The translations under genes were made by a program, and so were the position numbers. A stretch of 40,772 nt of DNA, taken from the IMG/VR virus record IMGVR_UViG_3300028456_000002, positions 1-40,772 of that record; one strand, given 5' to 3'. The DNA comes from a virus. Lineage: Duplodnaviria; Heunggongvirae; Uroviricota; Caudoviricetes. The notes beneath the pieces were generated by a model that was not told the DNA's origin, did no database searches, and was given only the letters and a program-made list of their open reading frames with translations. Positions 7,289-28,199 of the stretch are shown piece after piece (the first letter of the stretch is position 1; each line of letters starts with the position of its first letter).

Positions 7289-7618
7289 CTATGCCACGAC
7301 CTGTTCAAAATCTGCCGTTATGGTTACCCACAGCGCCCCCACGCTTGCCGACCATTTACGACAAACCACCCTGATCGGTTTCCAGTCATAAGGTGGCGTC
7401 CACTGAAATGCGCGGACGCCACCGTGCCGTTCCAGAAAGGCTTTTAAAGATGGGTGTTCACATTTACGAACACGTATCGTCACGCTGTAAGTCGACAACT
7501 GGTTATTCAGTCCCGCCGCACGACGCTGTTCATAACCATCGCCCAGCTTCACTGTCACCACTTTCGGCTCTGATACCACATTCATATCCGGGCGTACTTT
7601 CCAGTGAAACGTCTCCAT
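7289..7618 (-). CDS. M: Minor tail protein M
   Basis: 109 aa ORF METFHWKVRPDMNVVSEPKVVTVKLGDGYEQRR..., position between H and L. Confidence 0.85.
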   Translation of the reverse strand: METFHWKVRPDMNVVSEPKVVTVKLGDGYEQRRAAGLNNQLSTYSVTIRVRKCEHPSLKAFLERHGGVRAFQWTPPYDWKPIRVVCRKWSASVGALWVTITADFEQVVA

Positions 7619-10600
7619 TACCGATATGCTCCACTTAACCGACCACCATCACGGGACTGCTGTTGCATAAAGTCCGCTGCTGCTTTTTTCCCGAGGTCAT
7701 AAACCACCTTCAGGGCAGCCGGACCTATCTGCCCGTTCGTGCCATCGTTATTGATCTCGATGTTGTACTGCGGGGCAAACATCGCCATACCTGAACCACC
7801 AATATCCGCCACAACCCCCAGCTTACCGTCAGCACCACGACACAGAGGCAGAATGGCTTCAGGCCCAGCTTCCCCCATCACACCTGCACCTTTTGCAAAA
7901 GCAAAAAACGTCGGACGGTTAACCACCGTGCCACTGTAGCGACTCAAATCAGCAGACTGATAAACACCACCATCAGCATTGGGCGTCACACTGGCAGTTG
8001 CTGCACTCCCCCAGCCAAACGCCGAACCAATCCCCTTAACTGCCTGCATCATGGACATCTGAGCCATGATTTTTGCCAGATCAGAAAGGAGCGAGGCGGT
8101 AAAAGATTTGAAGTTCAGTTTTCCGGTAGTACAGAACGTTGCCAGTGCATTACCTGCACTGTTAAATGCCGCTGTAAGCATCTGCTCAGCAGTGCCTGCC
8201 GCATTATCCGCATCTGCCGTGAAATTCTGAAACGCCCGCATAGCACCGTTTTTCCAGTTACCCTGCACAACTTCAAGCTGTTGCCAGTAACGGCGATTCT
8301 CATTCAGTTGTCGGTTCAGGCTCTCCGTCAGCGCCTGCTCGGCCTTTCTGTAGTCATCCGTGTTATATGTCCCTTTCTGCTCACTATCCCGCCTCAACTG
8401 CTCCAGCTGTTGCTGGTATTTCTGGCGAAGACTCAGTTGTACCTGATATCGCTGCCGCTGCTGATCACCCATACCCACCGTGGCGATATCCAGGTCATGT
8501 TGCTGACGCTGAGCGCGCTCTTCTTCAGCCAGTTGACTGGTCAGCTGAATTGTTTTTTTCTTCAGATCGTTGAGTGCCGTCTGTTTCTGAAGCTCCTGCT
8601 GTTTTACATCCAGCAGCGTCAGTGCCTGAATCAGTTCATCTTTACGGGCCAGCACACTCTTTTCATCTGCCGTCAGTTTTTTCCCGTCCAGATCGCTGAT
8701 GCGCTGCTGCAGAGCCAGAAGCTGTTTATGCGCTTCTGTCATCCTGTCAGTGGCAATGCCTGCTGACTGTCTGGCAGCAGCAATCTGCCCTTCCACCTGT
8801 GCCTGTTGCTGACTGTACTGCAGCAATAACCGGGTGGCCTCATCATTACGGGTTTCGCGTGTTTTTTTCTTACCGGATGCCAGGGCTTTCTCGTAACGTT
8901 CATTTTCACGTTGTATCGCCGCATCCCTGACAGCCTGGTCGGCGTACTGCATGGCATTAATACGCGCAATTTCACGCTGATGTCGTGCTGCTTCCGTTTC
9001 ATTCATCCGGTTCAGTGCAGCATTTTCAGCATTACGGCGTTTCTGTTGCTCCTGATAATTCCGCTCTGCCTGCTCTTTTGCATCCTGCAAATCCTTCTGG
9101 CGTTTTTTCTCCTGAAGATCGTTAAGACGCTGCTGATCGTATTCAACCTGAGAAGATGATGCCGTCCAGGGGAGTCTTTTCGCCCGCGACACTTTCTCCT
9201 GTAAAGCGGAAATCTGTTCATCCAGCGAGTCTTCACGACCAATATTCATGGCCGCATCCCAGAAACGACTCCATAAATCAGACAGATACTTCAGCGTACT
9301 ACCAAGCGCATTGAGGTTATTATCAATATCCGCAGTACGCCGACCGGTTTCCTCTGCCAGTGCAGACATGGCTATCCGTGCAGCATCACTGGACCGCCCC
9401 TGCTCCCCAAGGACGCGTATCTGCTCAAGCTGAGTGGCAGTAAGAAAATGCAGCTCATTGTCCAGAGCCTTCGCGGCATTTACAGGATCATCCTTCAGCC
9501 GCTTAAACTGATTTATGGTATCGCTGACCGACTGGCCAACCGATCGCTCCATCTGTGCGGCAGCTCTCGCCACCATACCGATATCGTTTCCACGAAATGC
9601 ACCACTCCCCACCACCTGAGCCAGCGCACCGGCTGCAGCATGTTGCGTGATACCATTCCCGGAAATAGCACGACTGAGCGTCCACAGCTGCCCGGCAGTG
9701 ACTCCGGCATAATGCCCCGTCAGCGACAACTGGCGGTTAAATTCTTCCCCCTCCTTCTGACCGTCATACCAGGCTTTACCCAGACCATAGACGGCCGCGG
9801 CAATACCGCCAATAACCCCGCCAAGCATCATGCCTTTCGGTGACATCAGTGTGTCTATCCATCCGGCACGGTTAGCCAGCGTTATCCCGGATCCCCTCAG
9901 CGCACCTAAATTGCCGCGGGCCAGTTCACCTATCAGAACGCCTATCTCCTGGCGGGCCGCTGCACTTTTCAGACCCAGCGAATGCGTGGCTTTTCCTGCC
10001 TGCTCCATTTTGCGGATATACACTTCTGCAGCACTGCTTACCCCCAGTTGGGCAGCCTTAGCACGAAGCAACTCAGAAGAAGAAAGATTCTGGCGGGTTG
10101 CCTGCTCTTTAAGCTGACGGATAAACGCCACTTTCTGTCGGGTAGCCTCTTCCTCAGCCTGCGTAAGAACACGGGTTTTCGCCGTAACCTCAGAAATCAG
10201 CGCCAGATAATCCTGCTGACCAATCCCGCCACTGTTTCTGGCCTGTCGGATCTGCTGCTGAATACGCTGTAATTCCTGCAGCCCCGCACTGGCCTGTTTC
10301 ACACTGTCAATCTGACGATAAAACGCAGCAGCCGCTTTATCCTGAGCCTCCGCCAGAGCCATTGCCTGCGCCTGTTCCTCGCGCATTTTCTGGCTCAGTG
10401 CCTCCATGCGCTGGCGGGTTTTCTCCACCTCGCGGGCCATGCGTTCATGAGCCTGTGCGCTCTTCTCCACCGTCTGCGCATGGACGGATGCGGCTGTTGC
10501 AGCCGAAGACGCCGCCTGCGTTGTCTGCCGGGCGGCCTGAGTCTGACGCTCCATAAAACGCTGCATACGGGCAGAAGACCGTTCTGCATCGCTGGCTGCA

Positions 10601-10722
10601 CCATTCAGAAGGTTTTTGATACGGGGAATTTCATTTTTAAACTCTGCCGCATCAATCCCCAAATCAATGACCAGGTTGGCTATCTGGTCCATAACGCACA
10701 CCTCCGGAAATACCTTCCCCAA
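7618..10722 (-). CDS. H: Tail tape measure protein (H family)
   Basis: 1034 aa ORF, coiled-coil-rich, C-terminus ...NNDGTNGQIGPAALKVVYDLGKK... as in lambda H. True start may be the internal Met at about 10692. Confidence 0.85.
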   Translation of the reverse strand: MGKVFPEVCVMDQIANLVIDLGIDAAEFKNEIPRIKNLLNGAASDAERSSARMQRFMERQTQAARQTTQAASSAATAASVHAQTVEKSAQAHERMAREVEKTRQRMEALSQKMREEQAQAMALAEAQDKAAAAFYRQIDSVKQASAGLQELQRIQQQIRQARNSGGIGQQDYLALISEVTAKTRVLTQAEEEATRQKVAFIRQLKEQATRQNLSSSELLRAKAAQLGVSSAAEVYIRKMEQAGKATHSLGLKSAAARQEIGVLIGELARGNLGALRGSGITLANRAGWIDTLMSPKGMMLGGVIGGIAAAVYGLGKAWYDGQKEGEEFNRQLSLTGHYAGVTAGQLWTLSRAISGNGITQHAAAGALAQVVGSGAFRGNDIGMVARAAAQMERSVGQSVSDTINQFKRLKDDPVNAAKALDNELHFLTATQLEQIRVLGEQGRSSDAARIAMSALAEETGRRTADIDNNLNALGSTLKYLSDLWSRFWDAAMNIGREDSLDEQISALQEKVSRAKRLPWTASSSQVEYDQQRLNDLQEKKRQKDLQDAKEQAERNYQEQQKRRNAENAALNRMNETEAARHQREIARINAMQYADQAVRDAAIQRENERYEKALASGKKKTRETRNDEATRLLLQYSQQQAQVEGQIAAARQSAGIATDRMTEAHKQLLALQQRISDLDGKKLTADEKSVLARKDELIQALTLLDVKQQELQKQTALNDLKKKTIQLTSQLAEEERAQRQQHDLDIATVGMGDQQRQRYQVQLSLRQKYQQQLEQLRRDSEQKGTYNTDDYRKAEQALTESLNRQLNENRRYWQQLEVVQGNWKNGAMRAFQNFTADADNAAGTAEQMLTAAFNSAGNALATFCTTGKLNFKSFTASLLSDLAKIMAQMSMMQAVKGIGSAFGWGSAATASVTPNADGGVYQSADLSRYSGTVVNRPTFFAFAKGAGVMGEAGPEAILPLCRGADGKLGVVADIGGSGMAMFAPQYNIEINNDGTNGQIGPAALKVVYDLGKKAAADFMQQQSRDGGRLSGAYR

Positions 10723-10993
10723 GATGCATCAGTTCTTCGTCCGTTCGCTCCGGTATCCCGTTCTCTTCCGGTAAAAGGCTGAAATCAGCCACCGCAGCAT
10801 CACTGCTGCCGGACACCATTCTCACGATCAATGCCTTCAGCGAGGCAAACTGCGCATCCATCCACACATCACTGAAGCTCTGCATCCGGAAATAATCACC
10901 CCACTCACCAAGCTCAGTGGCCGACATTTCCGACAGCATCCGCCGCCAGTCTGCCCGCCGGAATTCCCGGGCAAGCCGCATGACAAACTGCAT
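10664..10993 (-). CDS. T: Tail assembly protein T region (expected to be made as a G-T fusion by -1 frameshift)
   Basis: 109 aa ORF in the -1 frame relative to G, open across the G stop; same arrangement as lambda G/GT. Confidence 0.7.
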   Translation of the reverse strand: MQFVMRLAREFRRADWRRMLSEMSATELGEWGDYFRMQSFSDVWMDAQFASLKALIVRMVSGSSDAAVADFSLLPEENGIPERTDEELMHLGEGISGGVRYGPDSQPGH

Positions 10994-11001
10994 TTCCCGC
11001 G

Positions 11002-11430
11002 TCAGGACTTTTCCGGCGTCAGCGCCTCATGCTCAAAATCCCCGGCATTCTCAATGGCTCCCATACCGCTCAGCGACAGAACCATCTCCGCCCCCGCTCC
11101 CAGGGCATCATACGACCATGTTGTAATAACGGATGCGTAAAGCGTCTCAACATCCTGAGACTGTTCCGCATTCCACAGTGAGCGGGAAACCAGCCAGGCA
11201 TTGATATCCATCCCCATCCGCAGAAAAGCAATCCGTCGTTCAGCCTCCGGCAGTTCTCCCTCTTCGGCATCAAACTTTGCCGTTCGCTGCCGAAGAAACG
11301 CCAGATATTCAATTCTCTGCAGCCCGGACAGCTCACTGAGCACCACGGACTGTTTTTCATAATTAAACGTGTCCTGTTTCAGAAACATCATGTTCTCCAC
11401 CTGCAAAAAAGCCCCGGATAACCGGGGCAA
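11002..11430 (-). CDS. G: Tail assembly chaperone G
   Basis: 142 aa, ...VVLSELSGLQRIEYLAFLRQ... similar to lambda G; lies between V and T. Confidence 0.8.
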   Translation of the reverse strand: MPRLSGAFLQVENMMFLKQDTFNYEKQSVVLSELSGLQRIEYLAFLRQRTAKFDAEEGELPEAERRIAFLRMGMDINAWLVSRSLWNAEQSQDVETLYASVITTWSYDALGAGAEMVLSLSGMGAIENAGDFEHEALTPEKS

Positions 11431-11448: not shown

Positions 11449-12192
11449 TTAACCTGCGGCGCTGACAGTCACCGCAGCCACAGCCACAAAATTCCCGTCA
11501 GCGGTCATGCCCACAATGCTGACACTGCCCTGCTTCACGCCTTTCACCGTGACCACAAGTCCGTTCAGGGTCACCGTGGCAGTCTGTGGATCTGTCGAAT
11601 GCACACTGATCGCTTTGTCACTGGCTCCGTCAGGTTTTACTGTAAAGGTCAGCGTGGTGGTTGCTCCCACATTGACACTGGCGGATGCCGGTGCCACCGT
11701 CAGCCCGGTAACGCCCACGGTTTCAGTGCCTTCTTCTGCCAGATACGGACGCCCCACACCGCTGATTTTCACTGTGCGGGTCATCACGTCTTTTGAGGCA
11801 ATGGTTTTACCCAGTGAACTCAGCCAGCCACGGAAAACATCAACAGTACCGTTGGGATATTTGATACGAAACGCGCAGACTTCACCGGAGTCGAACAACT
11901 GAACCAGTTTTTTCTGCCCGCTGTCACCCGGACGCCAGGCCAGCGTCGCCGAAGTATCACCGACGGATTTCTGCCCCTGGGTTGTCGTTTTCCAGTCTGC
12001 ATCTTCATCATCGAGATAAGTGTCATCTTCTGCATCAGCGGTCATTTCGCCAGGCTGCAGATCCTTCACCATCGCAAGACGCAGCCAGTCAGTGTCCGAC
12101 AAAGGGTTCGCAAATGCGTCGCCGTTGCCGGTATACATCCAGAACGTCGTCCCCGCACCTTTCGTCTTTGCCAGTGGATTTGGTGTGGTCAT
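11449..12192 (-). CDS. V: Major tail protein V
   Basis: Start taken at MTTPNPLAKTKGAGTTFWMYTGNGDAFANPLSDTDW (lambda V-like N-terminus); C-terminal Ig-like region. The track ORF extends upstream to 12267. Confidence 0.85.
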   Translation of the reverse strand: MTTPNPLAKTKGAGTTFWMYTGNGDAFANPLSDTDWLRLAMVKDLQPGEMTADAEDDTYLDDEDADWKTTTQGQKSVGDTSATLAWRPGDSGQKKLVQLFDSGEVCAFRIKYPNGTVDVFRGWLSSLGKTIASKDVMTRTVKISGVGRPYLAEEGTETVGVTGLTVAPASASVNVGATTTLTFTVKPDGASDKAISVHSTDPQTATVTLNGLVVTVKGVKQGSVSIVGMTADGNFVAVAAVTVSAAG

Positions 12193-13880: not shown

Positions 13881-15839
13881 TTACGCCGTACATTTCACCA
13901 GACCGCGGTGATCAACTGGCGCGACACCGGCGTCAATACGCACTTTCGTTGTCACGCCATCCACACTGAAGCCCTCCATCTGATCAATATATGGCGTATC
14001 CACACCGTTGAGATAAGCCACTTCAATCGTATCGGAGCCTTTTGACGCAGCCAGGTAGAAGGTGGTCTGGCTGTTATCATCAAGACGAGGCTCTGCAATA
14101 ACGGTCGCAAAATCTTTCACCGGGTTAATAATACCGGCGTTAATGTCAGCCCCCTTGACACTTGAGGAGCGAATGACCTGGTTAGCAACAGACTCCATCG
14201 CCGTCGGTACCAGTACGAACGCAGGACGAATATTCAGATGACGCTCCCCCTCTTTCTGAACGCGCATCAACTGGCGGGCTTTATCCAGCGATGCCACGTC
14301 CATTGCAGCGCTCTCCAGTACGTTTGCATGTTTCGCTTTATCGAACAGACTTACATTATCTGTGGAGATTTTCGGGTTAGACGTCAGAATGGCATAAACC
14401 AGATCGGCAATAGTGGATTTCGCCGCACGGCCCAGTTTCATCGGGACATCGGTCAGCATATTCAGATCATCATTGATAATGGCCTGACGGGTGATACTGA
14501 ACAGCTCGCCATAGGTCGCCAGTGCAATAGTGGCCTGTTTATCTCCGGTGGTGACGTATTTATATTCCGCCCCTTCACGCACCTGACGCAGAGCACTGAA
14601 GCCCCCCATACCCACACGATGGGCAATTTTAAAATCAGACAACTGACCTTTCCGCGTCCACTGTTCATAGGTTTCAGGGGCATCTTCCCAGCCCTGCAGA
14701 ATGGCTTTGTTCGCAACATCCAGCAGAATATTACCGAAGTCAGACGTACTGTGTGTGAACGCCGCACCGACCATCTGCATCGGGTTATAACCGGAAACCC
14801 CAATACCCCGTTCAGTCAGTGACATACGGGCATATTCACGCAGGGTCATCCCGTTGTAGACATTATCACGTTCGGTTTTTTCAAATCCGGCACGCGCCAT
14901 CAGCGCCTGGCGGATCCCGTCCCCCACAAAATTACCGTTACCGGCATAAATATGAGCCGGGGTATTTTTATTGGATGGCGTGGACTCGCGCCCCATCTCG
15001 TTCAACAGCTTTTCGCGGGCCTGCTCCAGCGAACATTCAGGATCGGCAAGACACTGAGCCTGCAGCGTCTGATAACGCCCGCCAAACATGGCAAACAGAT
15101 CATTAATACCGTTTACACGCGCTTTTTGCTCTGCCAGTACCTGCGCACGGATACTGTTTTCATCCACCACGGGTGCTGCTGCCTGCACTGGCGTCCGGGA
15201 AGCTGCAGGTTCATTATCCTGTACGCGTGGAGCACTGTTGCGTGGCGGAGTAATCATGTTTCGAATGGATTCCGGCATCTTTTTAAATTCCTCTGTACGT
15301 TTTGACTGAATACATGCCATTGCCTTAACGGCTGGCGTCACCTGATCAGCAAATCCATGTGCCAGACATTCGGCACCGGACATCCAGGTCTCATCCGCCA
15401 GCATGGCAGCAATTTCATCGGTGGTTTTCCCGGTTTTCTGTGCATAAGCGGGTAACAGAACCGCCTCAACTTTATCGAGCAGGTCGGCATAGGTGCGCAT
15501 GTCCTCCGCATCACCGCCCGTAAAGCCAAATGGTTTATGAATCATCATGAAGGTGTTTTCCGGCATAATGACCGGGTTTCCCACCATCGCAATGACCGAC
15601 GCCATTGATGCCGCCACACCGTCGACATAAACGGTAATGGACGCACCATGTGTTTTCAGTGCATTAAAAATGGCGATGCCTTCAAAGACATCGCCACCCG
15701 GTGAATTGATATGGAGATTAATGTGGGTGATATCGCCCAGTGCATTCAGATCACTGATAAACTGCTTCGCTGTAACCCCCCAGAAACCAATCTCGTCATA
15801 AATATAAATATCCGCGTCACTCTGGTGACCAGCCTGCAT
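13881..15839 (-). CDS. Prohead protease (ClpP-like) fused to major capsid protein
   Basis: ORF 13881..16100; start taken at MQAGHQSDADIYIYDEIGFWG just after the portal stop. N-terminal part has ClpP-like features (...HINSPGGDVFEG...), C-terminal part is capsid-like. Confidence 0.75.
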   Translation of the reverse strand: MQAGHQSDADIYIYDEIGFWGVTAKQFISDLNALGDITHINLHINSPGGDVFEGIAIFNALKTHGASITVYVDGVAASMASVIAMVGNPVIMPENTFMMIHKPFGFTGGDAEDMRTYADLLDKVEAVLLPAYAQKTGKTTDEIAAMLADETWMSGAECLAHGFADQVTPAVKAMACIQSKRTEEFKKMPESIRNMITPPRNSAPRVQDNEPAASRTPVQAAAPVVDENSIRAQVLAEQKARVNGINDLFAMFGGRYQTLQAQCLADPECSLEQAREKLLNEMGRESTPSNKNTPAHIYAGNGNFVGDGIRQALMARAGFEKTERDNVYNGMTLREYARMSLTERGIGVSGYNPMQMVGAAFTHSTSDFGNILLDVANKAILQGWEDAPETYEQWTRKGQLSDFKIAHRVGMGGFSALRQVREGAEYKYVTTGDKQATIALATYGELFSITRQAIINDDLNMLTDVPMKLGRAAKSTIADLVYAILTSNPKISTDNVSLFDKAKHANVLESAAMDVASLDKARQLMRVQKEGERHLNIRPAFVLVPTAMESVANQVIRSSSVKGADINAGIINPVKDFATVIAEPRLDDNSQTTFYLAASKGSDTIEVAYLNGVDTPYIDQMEGFSVDGVTTKVRIDAGVAPVDHRGLVKCTA

Positions 15840-15852
15840 CCTGAACCAGGAA

Positions 15853-17361
15853 TTATTCTTCGGACTGGTCGTCGTTGTGCTGCGGCTCCTGTCGTTTCGT
15901 TGCGGCACTGCTGCCTCCTTTATCACTGGCCGGATCGGTATCAAATACCAGATCCAGCTTGCGGTTTTCATCAATTTCGGCCTTGCGCCGACGTTTGACA
16001 TCATCCGGATTACGACCACCTGCACGTACCCAGTCTGATTCTGTCGCCGCTCCACCACGAATCTGGATTTTCCAGGCCTCAGCCTCCTTAACAGGGTCAA
16101 TCCACGGCATCACCGGTCCGGAATACACCGCGGTATACAGTGAAGAACGGTCAAGATCGCGGGGTAGCCTGATAACACCGGATGCAACAGCCTGTTTCAG
16201 CCAGGCACGGTACATCGGGCGGGTGACGGCACCAATAAACCAGTCCTGCAGGATCAGGTAGCCATCCGTGGATTCAACCAGCTCCTGACGCTGGGCGCTG
16301 TAAGTGCCGTTATAGTTGCGCGCTGTACTGGAAAAACTCAGACGACTGCCCGCCGCCACTGCACGCAACTGACCATTACGAAAAGTTTCAAGATTAGGAT
16401 TGGGGCGATCCGACTTCACCATTCCGATTTCTTCGCCGGGTTTCAGATCGTCGTAAATAATGCCTGGCTGAATGGTAAGCTCGCGTTCATTCTCCTTGCT
16501 GCCATTACCATCCGGTTCATAGCTCTGTCCGTCGCCTTTCCGGATGTACATCCCCAGAGCAGCGGCGATCCTTGCTGCAGTCAGCTCAGAATCTTCATAC
16601 TCTTTCAGGGCACTGAGGCGGATCAGTACACCGGACAATAAAGACGTCCCGCGCATCTGGTGCAGACGGCGAACAAATTTAAGATGCAGCATTCGCTCTG
16701 CATCCACTTCTTTGGTTTCCATCTGCCGTCCGGATACAGGACGGCTTTTATACACCAGATATTTTTCGGGACGCCCCCAGTCATCAACAAACACGCCCTG
16801 ATTCAGCCTGTTGCTCTCATCACTGGTCATGGGAATAAAGTCCGGCTCAAGCGCCTCCAGCCAGAAATGAACACCGGCAGAAGGCGTCAGGCTGTTTATG
16901 CGCCCGGAAACCATCTGGGCAAACACCTCACCATCGCGCAGCCAGGTACGCAGCATCAGACGTTCCAGCATCGGGCGGGTAAACTGCCCGGTGACTTCCG
17001 GACTGACAGACCATTCACTCCATCGGGTGCGTATCTCCGCTGCCAGGTCACGGGCAATGGCCCCATTGCGTAATACCGGATGTGGCTCGACAATAATCCC
17101 GTTTTTCCCCACCACCCGTTCTTCCAGCTTGTCAAATACACCAATAACCAGATCGTGGTTGTTATCAAGGTAACGGGCCTGCTCACGTAACGACACGGCC
17201 CCGTACTGGCTTAACTGGTCGGCAGTTCGGTTTTCCCGCCGGGCTTTGTGTGTCCGCGTCGTTTTTACGGCCTCATAAGCCTGGATCACCGCACGGGAAC
17301 GCAGCCTTGCCGCTTTCCATCCTGGTGAAAAAACGCCAATCACATCATCAAGAATTGCCAT
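15853..17361 (-). CDS. Portal protein
   Basis: ORF 15853..17433, about 500 aa, position between W-like gene and protease/capsid; start probably MAILDDVIGVF... Confidence 0.8.
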   Translation of the reverse strand: MAILDDVIGVFSPGWKAARLRSRAVIQAYEAVKTTRTHKARRENRTADQLSQYGAVSLREQARYLDNNHDLVIGVFDKLEERVVGKNGIIVEPHPVLRNGAIARDLAAEIRTRWSEWSVSPEVTGQFTRPMLERLMLRTWLRDGEVFAQMVSGRINSLTPSAGVHFWLEALEPDFIPMTSDESNRLNQGVFVDDWGRPEKYLVYKSRPVSGRQMETKEVDAERMLHLKFVRRLHQMRGTSLLSGVLIRLSALKEYEDSELTAARIAAALGMYIRKGDGQSYEPDGNGSKENERELTIQPGIIYDDLKPGEEIGMVKSDRPNPNLETFRNGQLRAVAAGSRLSFSSTARNYNGTYSAQRQELVESTDGYLILQDWFIGAVTRPMYRAWLKQAVASGVIRLPRDLDRSSLYTAVYSGPVMPWIDPVKEAEAWKIQIRGGAATESDWVRAGGRNPDDVKRRRKAEIDENRKLDLVFDTDPASDKGGSSAATKRQEPQHNDDQSEE

Positions 17362-17579
17362 CAGAACCTCGCCAGCCGGTACCCGGGATGCCCCCGTCGT
17401 CGTGTAATCAGAGCCGCAAGGCGGCGCTCCCACTCCTGCCGCCCCTGCCGGATCTCAGATAAGTTTTCCATGGTCATCTGCTGACCATTAAAGGTGACGG
17501 ATTTTCCGTCCAGCACCGCCATTTCAGCTTCCGTATAACGCTGAATCATGGCTTCAATATCATTCTGGTTCATAACCAT
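17361..17579 (-). CDS. W: Head-tail connector protein W-like
   Basis: 72 aa, C-terminus ...RRRGHPGYRLARF resembles lambda W end; stop overlaps portal start. Confidence 0.6.
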   Translation of the reverse strand: MVMNQNDIEAMIQRYTEAEMAVLDGKSVTFNGQQMTMENLSEIRQGRQEWERRLAALITRRRGHPGYRLARF

Positions 17580-22734: not shown

Positions 22735-22809
<75 letters not shown>

Positions 22810-22812
22810 ATA

Positions 22813-22888
<76 letters not shown>

Positions 22889-27763: not shown

Positions 27764-27919
27764 TTACTCCTCAGATTCGTAAGCTGTGAAGACAGCGACC
27801 TCCGTCTGGCCGGTTCGGATTCGTACCTCGCAGAGGTCTTTCCTCGTTACCAGTGCCGTCACTATGACGGTTAAACAGATGACGATCAGGGCGATTAACA
27901 TCGCCTTTTGCTGCTTCAT
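27764..27919 (-). CDS. hok: Hok/Gef family type I toxin (HokD-like), inside an N-terminally extended mok frame 27764..27976
   Basis: MKQQKAMLIALIVICLTVIVTALVTRKDLCEVRIRTGQTEVAVFTAYESEE, 51 aa, single TM helix, near-identical to chromosomal Hok proteins; the 70-aa in-frame upstream extension corresponds to mok. Confidence 0.85.
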   Translation of the reverse strand: MKQQKAMLIALIVICLTVIVTALVTRKDLCEVRIRTGQTEVAVFTAYESEE

Positions 27920-28199
27920 AGCCTGCTTCTCCTTGCCTTTCGGCATGTAAGAGGCTAACCTACATGTGCAAAGCATGAAATTGGCCTCAGATTAATGTTA
28001 AGCGTCTTGCCGGACGCGTAATGTTAACTGGGGCTTTTCTCTATCTGCCGTTGGTGTTCATGCCTGAGACAGATAGCCTCAAGCACCCGCAGCAATTCTA
28101 CTTAACTATCCTTTTCCCGCAAATCGTTTTTATCCCCAGCGGCAAATCGAATACACCACCAGCGCCACTGCCATCGCGATTCCTACTGTTGTGAATGCC

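What the first reader, a model, noticed from the sequence alone, without database searches (positions are those of the whole stretch)
10990..11050. G-T frameshift region lacks the canonical GGGAAAG slip site
T is open in the -1 frame across the 3' end of G as expected, but the overlap contains CCGGAAAAGTCC rather than the lambda heptamer. Either a variant slippery sequence (GGAAAAG or the A-run) is used or the G-T fusion is made differently.
Basis: partly seen in the sequence, partly recalled or inferred. Interest (0 to 1): 0.35.

Follow-up and report, generated by a model that had tools for sequence, protein, structure and literature searches.

The report
Variant slip site for tail-chaperone frameshift
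This prophage most likely makes its G-T tail-assembly fusion protein by a -1 ribosomal frameshift on GGAAAAG instead of lambda's GGGAAAG, and this one-base variant is the commonest slip site in the gene family and is already annotated in phage phi80, so the finding is ordinary.

Summary
On the minus strand, G (11388..11002) ends ...ACG CCG GAA AAG TCC TGA. The T frame is -1 relative to G and is open for only the last 8 codons of G. Neither gene contains GGGAAAG.

The only re-pairing site in that overlap is G_GAA_AAG (11014..11008). It lies at exactly the position of lambda's G_GGA_AAG. I sorted G-T homologues into 24 clusters at 80% identity. GGAAAAG is present in 18 of them, GGGAAAG in 3, GGCAAAA in 2 and GGGAAAA in 1. 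CP-1639, analysed separately, has AAAAAAG.

- Heptamer base 1 is G in all 24 clusters, although it is the third base of seven different codons.
- T-frame residues upstream of any start codon are conserved with synonymous variation.
- The window's "T" ATG occurs in only 2 of 24 clusters and has no usable Shine-Dalgarno sequence.
- No conserved downstream RNA structure was found.

The phi80 GenBank record already annotates GGAAAAG as the -1 slippery sequence. Gifsy-1, which has the identical local sequence, is annotated as frameshifted.

The module is in 1845 of 5426 complete E. coli genomes, where T is annotated as a separate gene. This is a known mechanism with an annotation gap. Interest is low.

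The parts
11002..11388 (-). Gene G, tail assembly chaperone (128 aa; an alternative ATG lies 3 nt upstream at 11391). It is the zero frame of the frameshift.
   Evidence: PF06894 Phage_TAC_2, E=7.4e-41. The exact protein is deposited as 'phage tail assembly chaperone G', WP_137518048.1. SD GGTGGAG precedes the start.
11008..11014 (-). Slippery heptamer G_GAA_AAG. The P-site codon is GAA (Glu) and the A-site codon is AAG (Lys). It reads GGA AAA in the -1 frame.
   Evidence: Coordinates checked. It is the only re-pairing site in the overlap. It lies at the position of lambda's G_GGA_AAG. GGAAAAG is present in 18 of 24 clusters. Bases 1, 2, 4, 5 and 6 are invariant. phi80 annotates the same heptamer as its slippery sequence.
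11027..11029 (-). TGA in the -1 (T) frame. It closes that frame upstream, so any shift must occur within the last 8 codons of G.
11002..11004 (-). G stop codon (TGA), one codon after the heptamer.
   Evidence: The stop lies one codon downstream of the heptamer in 9 of the 24 clusters, including this one.
10664..11008 (-). T portion of the predicted G-T fusion, from the re-read G of AAG to the TGA at 10666..10664. The predicted fusion is 241 aa with the junction ...EALTPEK|VLTREMQF...
   Evidence: PF06223 Phage_tail_T, E=5e-15. Fusion translated. The T frame aligns without gaps from the slip site in 24 clusters. Conserved E (22/24) and F (24/24) with synonymous codon variation lie upstream of any start codon.
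10991..10993 (-). ATG used by public annotation as the start of a stand-alone 109-aa 'T'. It is probably an internal Met codon of the fusion.
   Evidence: ATG at this codon in only 2 of 24 clusters; most others have CTG or CGN. The upstream sequence CGCGGGAA has no spaced SD, unlike G and H. PGAP and phage records start T here.
11025..11028 (-). SD-like GAGG, 10 nt upstream of the heptamer. It is a possible but unproven stimulator.
   Evidence: It is probably a by-product of a conserved Glu codon, GAG in 11 clusters and GAA in 11.
11449..12192 (-). Major tail protein V with a C-terminal Big_2 domain. It is the upstream neighbour that defines the V-G-T-H gene order.
   Evidence: PF16461, E=1e-66, and PF02368. 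Annotated as the major tail protein in relatives.
7618..10692 (-). Tape measure protein H. Its start overlaps the 3' end of T and is preceded by the SD GGAGGTG.
   Evidence: ORF. Start region. Annotated as the tape measure protein in relatives.
11411..11428 (-). Terminator-like GC hairpin plus T6 between V and G.
   Evidence: Annotated as a rho-independent terminator in mEp460 and Ayreon.

Best explanation
A small fraction of ribosomes translating G slip back one nucleotide on G_GAA_AAG (11014..11008). They then continue in the T frame and make a 241-aa G-T fusion with the junction ...TPEK-VLTRE... The remaining ribosomes terminate one codon later and make G. As in lambda, G and G-T would act together as tape-measure chaperones.

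The likely tRNA-level event is tandem slippage:
- A-site tRNA-Lys(UUU) moves from AAG to the better-paired AAA.
- P-site tRNA-Glu(UUC) moves from GAA to GGA. It keeps G:C at codon position 1 and A:U at position 3, and takes a G.U at the middle position.

Shown here:
- the gene identities;
- the 8-codon constraint on where a shift can occur;
- the positional homology of the heptamer with lambda's site;
- its conservation across relatives;
- the lack of a conserved start for T.

Inferred:
- that a fusion is actually made;
- its efficiency;
- whether the P-site tRNA re-pairs or only tRNA-Lys slips.

I put about 0.85 on a -1 frameshift at this heptamer. Given that, I put about 0.65 on the tandem version.
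For: 1. G is PF06894 and T is PF06223, in the order V-G-T-H.
2. The T frame is closed by TGA 4 codons before the heptamer's -1-frame GGA codon. The shift window is 8 codons, and the only re-pairing site in it is G_GAA_AAG.
3. The fusion proteins of the window, Gifsy-1, phi80 and lambda align with the slip-site Lys as an invariant column. The DNA of 24 cluster representatives aligns without gaps from the heptamer into T.
4. Heptamer counts over the 24 clusters are GGAAAAG 18, GGGAAAG 3, GGCAAAA 2 and GGGAAAA 1. CP-1639 has AAAAAAG at the same place.
5. Base 1 is G in 24 of 24 clusters, although it is the third base of CCG, GCG, CTG, TTG, GTG, ACG or ATG. Third bases of the neighbouring codons are G in only 3-11 of 24. 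Base 1 also tracks the first base of the P-site codon (G|GGA, G|GAA, A|AAA). Tandem re-pairing requires exactly this.
6. T-frame codon 5 is Glu in 22 of 24 clusters (GAA 7, GAG 15). Codon 8 is Phe in 24 of 24 (TTT 19, TTC 5). Both lie upstream of any possible start. Nine of 24 clusters have no ATG, GTG or TTG in the first 13 T-frame codons.
7. phi80 record FN582354 annotates GGAAAAG as the 'slippery sequence for -1 translational frameshift' with a joined gpG-T CDS. Gifsy-1 has the identical CCGGAAAAGTCCTGA, and its T is annotated as made 'by translational frameshifting'.
8. A_AA.G is by far the most shift-prone tetramer in E. coli (PMC4066793). NNA_AAG sites such as IS1222 G_CGA_AAG are used naturally, and G_GA is a recognised non-canonical X_XX (PMC5009743).
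Against: - No protein data exist for this family.
- In a reconstituted E. coli system G GAA AAG was used as the 'less slippery / unfavourable' sequence, and it gave mainly zero-frame product (PMC6924986).
- Without a stimulator, tetramer motifs are barely above background in vivo (PMC4066793). I found no conserved downstream structure: the window fold has z = -0.33, and the alignment fold gives -1.3 kcal/mol with no covariation.
- The same heptamer in the slip phase sits in 4 other long ORFs of the window, so the sequence alone is not diagnostic.
- The window's cluster does have an ATG 8 nt after the G stop, so some independent T cannot be excluded.
Confidence: 0.85

Rival explanations
1. Same site and same product, but only tRNA-Lys slips, on the A_AAG tetramer. 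This could happen in the A site, or in the P site while the next codon waits. tRNA-Glu does not re-pair. This is a sub-variant of the best explanation, not an alternative to frameshifting. The confidence given is conditional on a frameshift at this site.
For: - A_AA.G is the most efficient tetramer.
- Two clusters have G_GCA_AAA, where the P-site tRNA cannot re-pair.
- In 5 of 24 clusters the heptamer is followed directly by TAG, which suits P-site slippage at a slow A site.
Against: - Base 1 is G in 24 of 24 clusters, across seven different preceding codons. It switches to A exactly when the P-site codon is AAA. A Lys-only slip has no need for base 1.
- The middle-position G.U is a purine-pyrimidine mismatch, the less costly type in the dnaX free-energy model (PMC6787027).
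Confidence: 0.3
2. T is made mainly on its own. Ribosomes either initiate at the ATG at 10993 or re-initiate there after terminating at the G stop 8 nt upstream. No G-T fusion is needed in this family.
For: - An in-frame ATG lies 8 nt after the G stop in all 57 equal-length members of the window's cluster.
- All public annotations call T from this ATG.
Against: - ATG at that codon occurs in only 2 of 24 clusters. Gifsy-1, phi80 and lambda have CTG there.
- There is no spaced SD (CGCGGGAA-ATG), whereas G has GGTGGAG and H has GGAGGTG.
- T-frame residues upstream of the ATG are conserved, and the frame is open back exactly to the slip region.
- In lambda the T domain works only as part of G-T, tethered to the tape measure through the G part (review PMC5009743).
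Confidence: 0.07
3. The frame change is made at the RNA level, by RNA-polymerase slippage on the A-run, or at a different site in the overlap.
For: None beyond the presence of AAAA.
Against: - The run is only 4 A. Efficient bacterial RNA-polymerase slippage is reported for runs of about 9, and T5C5 gives none without special context (PMC5009743).
- The other 6 codons of the overlap (GAG GCG CTG ACG CCG ... TCC) offer no -1 re-pairing.
Confidence: 0.02

Closest known systems
Phage lambda G / G-T programmed -1 frameshift (Levin, Hendrix & Casjens 1993; Xu, Hendrix & Duda 2004, 2013, 2014; as summarised in PMC5009743 and PMC3296357)
   Same: - Same Pfam families, PF06894 and PF06223.
- Same V-G-T-H gene order.
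- T is in the -1 frame and overlaps the 3' end of G.
- The slip site is at the same aligned position, and the A-site codon is AAG in both.
- No conserved downstream structure.
   Different: - The heptamer is G_GAA_AAG, not G_GGA_AAG. The P-site tRNA is therefore tRNA-Glu with a middle-position G.U after the shift, instead of tRNA-Gly with full re-pairing.
- The overlap is 25 nt rather than 64 nt, and the G stop is 1 codon rather than 5 codons after the site.
- G is about 34% identical to lambda G.
Phage phi80 gpG-T (GenBank FN582354: joined CDS plus a misc_feature 'slippery sequence for -1 translational frameshift')
   Same: Identical heptamer GGAAAAG in the same phase and at the same aligned position.
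   Different: - About 34-37% protein identity.
- The preceding codon is GCG, not CCG.
- The G stop is 5 codons downstream.
- There is no ATG at the start of T.
- The phi80 annotation is a prediction; I found no experimental test.
Gifsy-1 STM2596/STM2595 (NC_010392), and the mEp460 / cdtI / Ayreon / Tritos phages
   Same: - Gifsy-1 has the identical local sequence ACGCCGGAAAAGTCCTGA, 55-60% protein identity, and T annotated as part of the chaperone 'by translational frameshifting'.
- mEp460, cdtI, Ayreon and Tritos are 97-98% identical in DNA to the window.
   Different: - Gifsy-1 has CTG where the window has ATG.
- The mEp460-type records annotate G and T as separate genes.
NNA_AAG 'hexanucleotide' and A_AAG tetramer sites (IS1222 G_CGA_AAG; Bacillus cdd A_CGA_AAG; Licznar 2003 and Sharma 2014, as summarised in PMC5009743 and PMC4066793)
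   Same: A shift-prone tRNA-Lys on A_AAG, combined with a P-site codon that cannot fully re-pair.
   Different: - Here the P-site tRNA can still form 2 Watson-Crick pairs plus a G.U.
- The IS sites use strong downstream stimulators, and none is seen here.
G_GAN_NNN slippery sites of RNA viruses (insect-specific flaviviruses, dianthoviruses, umbraviruses, mesoniviruses; PMC5009743)
   Same: The same non-canonical X_XX = G_GA, with a GAN to GGA P-site shift.
   Different: - Eukaryotic ribosomes.
- A U-rich A-site codon.
- Strong 3' RNA stimulators.
E. coli dnaX A_AAA_AAG
   Same: - A-site AAG read by the single tRNA-Lys(UUU).
- The window has an SD-like GAGG 10 nt upstream, the same spacing as I recall for the dnaX SD (the dnaX spacing is from my own knowledge).
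- CP-1639-type G-T genes use the dnaX heptamer itself.
   Different: - There is no downstream hairpin.
- The SD-like element is not conserved across the family.
- The expected efficiency is a few per cent, not about 50-80%.

Membership tests
Lambda-type G/G-T tail assembly chaperone frameshift (Xu et al. 2004 class) | Two small ORFs between the major tail gene and the tape measure gene | tested here: met
   V (PF16461) 11449-12192, G, T, and H 7618-10692, all on the minus strand.
Lambda-type G/G-T tail assembly chaperone frameshift (Xu et al. 2004 class) | Sequence homology of both parts to lambda G and T | tested here: met
   PF06894 at E=7e-41 and PF06223 at E=5e-15. Alignment with the lambda, phi80 and Gifsy-1 fusions.
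Lambda-type G/G-T tail assembly chaperone frameshift (Xu et al. 2004 class) | The downstream ORF is in the -1 frame, overlaps the 3' end of the upstream ORF, and lacks its own conserved start and RBS | tested here: met
   A 25-nt overlap. ATG in only 2 of 24 clusters, with no spaced SD.
Lambda-type G/G-T tail assembly chaperone frameshift (Xu et al. 2004 class) | A slippery sequence inside the overlap, conserved among relatives | tested here: met
   G_GAA_AAG at 11014..11008. GGAAAAG is in 18 of 24 clusters, and all 24 have a G-G-N-A-A-A-R site at the same position.
Lambda-type G/G-T tail assembly chaperone frameshift (Xu et al. 2004 class) | A fusion protein is made at a low, fixed ratio to G and is required for tail assembly | not testable with these tools
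   This needs immunoblot or mass spectrometry plus phage genetics. The predicted fusion is not in the protein collection.
Canonical X_XXY_YYZ heptamer | Positions 1-3 identical and positions 4-6 identical, in the phase X_XXY_YYZ | tested here: not met
   Positions 1-3 are G, G, A. Positions 4-6 are AAA, and the phase is correct.
Z_ZZN tetramer / NNA_AAG hexamer class of bacterial -1 sites | A_AAG with AAG as the zero-frame codon | tested here: met
   GA[A_AAG] with AAG in the G frame. The class is defined in PMC4066793 and PMC5009743.
dnaX/IS-type stimulated frameshift signal | An SD-like sequence 6-17 nt upstream of the motif | tested here: inconclusive
   GAGG lies 10 nt upstream in the window. 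An SD-like element at 10-12 nt is found in 8 of 24 clusters against a background of 4.9%. However, the conserved element is a Glu codon, split GAG 11 and GAA 11, and the clusters are not independent.
dnaX/IS-type stimulated frameshift signal | A downstream hairpin or pseudoknot 5-9 nt after the motif | tested here: not met
   The 88 nt downstream fold no better than shuffles (z = -0.33). RNAalifold on 24 sequences gives -1.3 kcal/mol and no compensatory pairs.
Transcriptional (RNA polymerase) slippage | A long homopolymer run, about 9 in the cases reviewed | tested here: not met
   The run is A4 only. The criterion comes from PMC5009743.

The most novel reading that the evidence does not exclude
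G_GAA_AAG may be a separately tuned signal rather than a degraded lambda site. Both slipping tRNAs, Glu(UUC) and Lys(UUU), carry mnm5s2U34. The G:G-T ratio would then depend even more strongly on host tRNA thiolation (the TusA/MnmA versus IscU pathway) than it does in lambda. Local context could supply the efficiency that the heptamer alone lacks in vitro. That context is the SD-like GAGG 10 nt upstream, the G stop one codon downstream, and the conserved E-x-x-[ST]-[PA]-E-K nascent peptide.

The zero frame reads Glu-Lys and the -1 frame reads Gly-Lys. This site, unlike lambda's, would therefore also reveal on which codon the shift happens.
Probability: 0.12. Interest if true: 0.4.

Novelty: already known. 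Interest (0 to 1): 0.15.

Why it matters
The main consequence is for annotation.

- This G-T module is in 1845 of 5426 complete E. coli genomes.
- Its T is deposited on at least 1000 contigs as a stand-alone 109-aa protein.
- The likely real product, a 241-aa G-T fusion, is absent from the databases.

A smaller point concerns the recoding field. Biophysical work has used G GAA AAG as the "unfavourable" comparison sequence (PMC6924986). Yet it is the commonest natural slip site in this sample of the lambda G-T family, in 18 of 24 clusters. This fits a system that needs only a few per cent of frameshifting.

The site would also allow the shifted codon to be located by mass spectrometry. That is not possible at lambda's GGGAAAG, because both frames there read Gly-Lys.

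Tried and rejected
1. **Downstream stimulatory RNA.** The 88 nt after the heptamer fold no better than shuffles (z = -0.33). A 24-sequence RNAalifold gave 4 invariant pairs, -1.3 kcal/mol and no covariation. Rejected.

2. **Internal SD stimulator.** GAGG lies 10 nt upstream. SD-like motifs at 10-12 nt occur in 8 of 24 clusters against 4.9% in the G gene bodies (nominal P about 1e-5).
   - The conserved element is a Glu codon at -14..-12, split GAG 11 and GAA 11.
   - A second peak at spacing 25 has the same in-frame GAG-G origin.
   - The spacing window was chosen after seeing the data, and the clusters share ancestry.
   - Left as unproven.

3. **The -1-frame Gly-Lys (GGN AAA) is itself decoded, perhaps by the prophage's own tRNA-Gly(UCC)**. 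This was attractive because GGN-AAA is invariant in the 24 clusters. However, CP-1639 has A_AAA_AAG (-1 frame Lys-Lys) at the same place, and no upstream codon can slip. Considered unlikely.

4. **Independent T start or re-initiation.** See the rivals.

5. **Transcriptional slippage.** A4 is too short.

6. **A deposited fusion protein.** I looked up the predicted fusions of the window and of phi80 by exact sequence, and neither is in the collection.

7. **Literature.**
   - Xu et al. 2004 (Mol Cell) and Licznar et al. 2003 (EMBO J) are not held. I could not check whether they list or measured G_GAA_AAG.
   - Text searches for GGAAAAG with 'tail' and 'frameshift' returned only unrelated primer hits.
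   - A search for phi80 with 'frameshift' returned nothing I followed up.

8. **Within-cluster polymorphism.** Across 57 sequences, 86 of 728 sites vary and none is in the heptamer. This is consistent with the explanation, but about 0.8 variable sites would be expected in 7 nt, so the test is too weak to count.

Full report
**What is in the sequence**

All relevant genes are on the minus strand. The ORF at 11388..11002 (128 aa; a second ATG lies at 11391) matches Pfam PF06894, the lambda tail assembly chaperone G, at E=7e-41. The reading frame that ends at 10666..10664 matches PF06223, minor tail protein T, at E=5e-15. Upstream lies a lambda-type tail tube protein with a Big_2 domain. Downstream lies a roughly 1024-aa tape measure gene.

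G ends ...GAG GCG CTG ACG CCG GAA AAG TCC TGA. The T frame is -1 relative to G. A TGA at 11029..11027 closes it upstream, so it overlaps G by only 25 nt, or 8 codons.

**Is it more than chance?**

GGAAAAG is not rare. The window holds 11 copies against about 7 expected. In the X_XXY_YYZ phase it also occurs in four other long ORFs. The heptamer alone therefore proves little, with roughly a 0.4% chance for a given 8-codon span. The weight lies in the comparative data.

**Positional homology with lambda**

Within the 8-codon overlap, G_GAA_AAG (11014..11008) is the only place where tRNAs could re-pair after a -1 shift. I built the predicted fusions for the window, Gifsy-1, phi80 and lambda. When aligned, the slip-site Lys is an invariant column:
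- window and Gifsy-1: TPEK|VL
- phi80: TAEK|AL
- lambda: SAGK|VF

The conserved T motif ..F..L.LAREF.RPDWR.ML follows at a fixed distance. The site differs from lambda's G_GGA_AAG by one base, at position 3.

**Survey of relatives**

I collected 143 loci from one genome per species, from IMG/VR and from phage records. They gave 102 distinct G..T DNA sequences and 24 clusters at 80% protein identity.

| Heptamer at the homologous position | Clusters | Examples |
|---|---|---|
| GGAAAAG | 18 | Escherichia, Salmonella, Citrobacter, Kluyvera, Kosakonia, Enterobacter, Providencia, Sodalis and others |
| GGGAAAG | 3 | lambda/21, Edwardsiella, E. albertii / Stx2a phages |
| GGCAAAA | 2 | L016, L018 |
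| GGGAAAA | 1 | L046 |

Eight more phage loci added A_AAA_AAG in CP-1639. In this sample lambda's heptamer is the minority form. The sample is biased by the two peptide patterns used to find the loci.

Bases 1, 2, 4, 5 and 6 of the heptamer are invariant, while the 30 nt upstream are mostly variable.
- Base 1 is G in 24 of 24 clusters, although it is the third base of seven different codons (CCG, GCG, CTG, TTG, GTG, ACG, ATG).
- Third bases of the nine preceding codons are G in only 3-11 of 24 clusters.
- Base 1 is never translated in the T frame if the shift occurs on the heptamer. Its conservation therefore points to selection on the nucleotide.
- It also tracks the first base of the P-site codon (G|GGA, G|GAA, A|AAA). 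Re-pairing of the P-site tRNA requires exactly this.

**T is not a separate gene**

From the heptamer onwards, the 24 representatives align without a single gap, and none has a stop in the T frame. All have a stop in the G frame within 9 codons.
- T-frame codon 5 is Glu in 22 of 24 clusters (GAA 7, GAG 15).
- T-frame codon 8 is Phe in 24 of 24 (TTT 19, TTC 5).

This is purifying selection with synonymous change, and it lies upstream of any possible start.

The window's ATG (10993) is shared by only 2 of 24 clusters. Gifsy-1, phi80 and lambda have CTG there. Nine clusters have no ATG, GTG or TTG in the first 13 codons.

G and H have good Shine-Dalgarno sequences (GGTGGAG and GGAGGTG). The 'T' ATG is preceded by CGCGGGAA, which has no usable spacing.

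**Stimulators**

The 88 nt after the site fold no better than shuffled sequence (z = -0.33). The 24-sequence consensus fold is -1.3 kcal/mol with no compensatory change.

An SD-like GAGG lies 10 nt upstream, and such motifs at 10-12 nt are nominally enriched (8 of 24 clusters against 4.9%). What is actually conserved, however, is a Glu codon four codons before the site, split evenly between GAG and GAA. It belongs to a peptide motif E-x-x-[ST]-[PA]-[EG]-K. I regard the SD idea as unproven.

The G stop lies one codon after the heptamer in this cluster. In five clusters a TAG follows the heptamer directly.

**Mechanism**

The best-supported reading is a low-level -1 ribosomal frameshift.
- tRNA-Lys(UUU) moves from AAG to AAA. 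This is the classic shift-prone event in E. coli, and A_AA.G is by far the best tetramer (PMC4066793).
- tRNA-Glu moves from GAA to GGA, with G:C, G.U and A:U pairs.
- The product is a 241-aa fusion...EALTPEK-VLTREMQF....

In lambda the G:G-T ratio is about 30:1, and the frameshift frequency is about 4% (PMC5009743; PMC3296357). A weak site is therefore sufficient.

Against a strong claim, G GAA AAG gave mainly zero-frame product in a reconstituted system and was described there as unfavourable (PMC6924986). Tetramers without stimulators are near background in vivo. No protein data exist for this family. Whether tRNA-Glu really re-pairs (tandem slippage) or only tRNA-Lys slips is inferred from the base-1 pattern. 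It has not been shown.

**Comparison with what is known**

- The phi80 record FN582354 carries a joined gpG-T CDS and a feature 'slippery sequence for -1 translational frameshift' that is exactly GGAAAAG.
- Gifsy-1 has the identical CCGGAAAAGTCCTGA, and its T is annotated as made by translational frameshifting.
- Non-canonical G_GA P-site contexts and NNA_AAG sites are recognised classes (PMC5009743).
- PRFect lists a 'twofour' motif and discusses GAA to GGA re-pairing through G:U (PMC10274946).

The window is 97-98% identical to phages mEp460, cdtI, Ayreon and Tritos. The module is in 1845 of 5426 complete E. coli genomes. In all of these, G and T are annotated as separate genes, and the fusion is absent from the protein collection.

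**Verdict**

The feature is a known mechanism in its commonest sequence form. It is not novel, apart from a widespread annotation gap. A minor point is that the natural majority site is the one biophysicists use as a poorly slippery control.

Noticed in passing
window 22735-22888 (minus strand): Two adjacent prophage-borne tRNA genes: tRNA-Thr(UGU) at 22813-22888 and tRNA-Gly(UCC) at 22735-22809. The same pair occurs in other E. coli lambdoid phages. One of them, PhiR47_1, shares this G-T module and also carries a tRNA-Lys. tRNA-Gly(UCC) reads GGA, the -1-frame codon of the heptamer, but I found no evidence of a link to the frameshift.
   Followed up: partly
window 27914-28088 (minus strand): Rfam match to the sok antitoxin RNA (RF01794, 112 bits, full length). 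This indicates a hok/sok-type toxin-antitoxin locus in the prophage.
   Followed up: no
window 11411-11428 (minus strand): A 7-bp all-GC hairpin followed by T6, between the major tail gene V and G. It is annotated as a rho-independent terminator in mEp460 and Ayreon. It would lower transcription of G, T and H relative to V.
   Followed up: partly
window 11015-11029 (minus strand) and the 24 cluster representatives: The otherwise variable C-terminal tail of G carries a conserved peptide, E-x-x-[ST]-[PA]-[EG]-K, that ends at the slip site. A GAR codon sits at -14..-12 in 22-23 of 24 clusters. In the window this gives an SD-like GAGG 10 nt before the heptamer. Whether the conservation acts on the protein, the nascent peptide or the mRNA is unknown.
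   Followed up: partly
L016, L018, L031, L046, L062 (G 3' ends): In 5 of 24 clusters the slip heptamer is followed directly by the G stop codon, and the stop is TAG in all five. This includes the two clusters with G_GCA_AAA, where the P-site tRNA cannot re-pair. A stop codon in the A site may substitute for P-site re-pairing.
   Followed up: no
L161 (phage CP-1639, AJ304858): This locus has the dnaX-type heptamer A_AAA_AAG at the homologous G-T position. Stx1a and Stx2a phage records with the same 32.6% tblastn identity to G may share it, but I did not read their sequences.
   Followed up: partly
L049-L054, L057-L060 (genome contigs): Identical lambda G-T DNA appears in short, low-coverage contigs of unrelated genera, including Kitasatospora, Neobacillus, Oceanobacillus, Chromatium, Shewanella and Leeuwenhoekiella. 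This is almost certainly lambda DNA contamination of those assemblies.
   Followed up: no
window 23424, 26069 (minus strand); 35147, 38305 (plus strand): G_GAA_AAG in the slip phase occurs in four other long ORFs of the window. In-phase G_GGA_AAG and A_AAA_AAG occur in none. I did not check whether those ORFs are real genes or whether a -1 ORF follows.
   Followed up: no
window 13881-16100 (minus strand): A single 739-aa ORF lies downstream of the portal-sized ORF (15853-17433). From the translation alone it looks like a head protease fused to a major capsid protein. I ran no domain search on either ORF.
   Followed up: no
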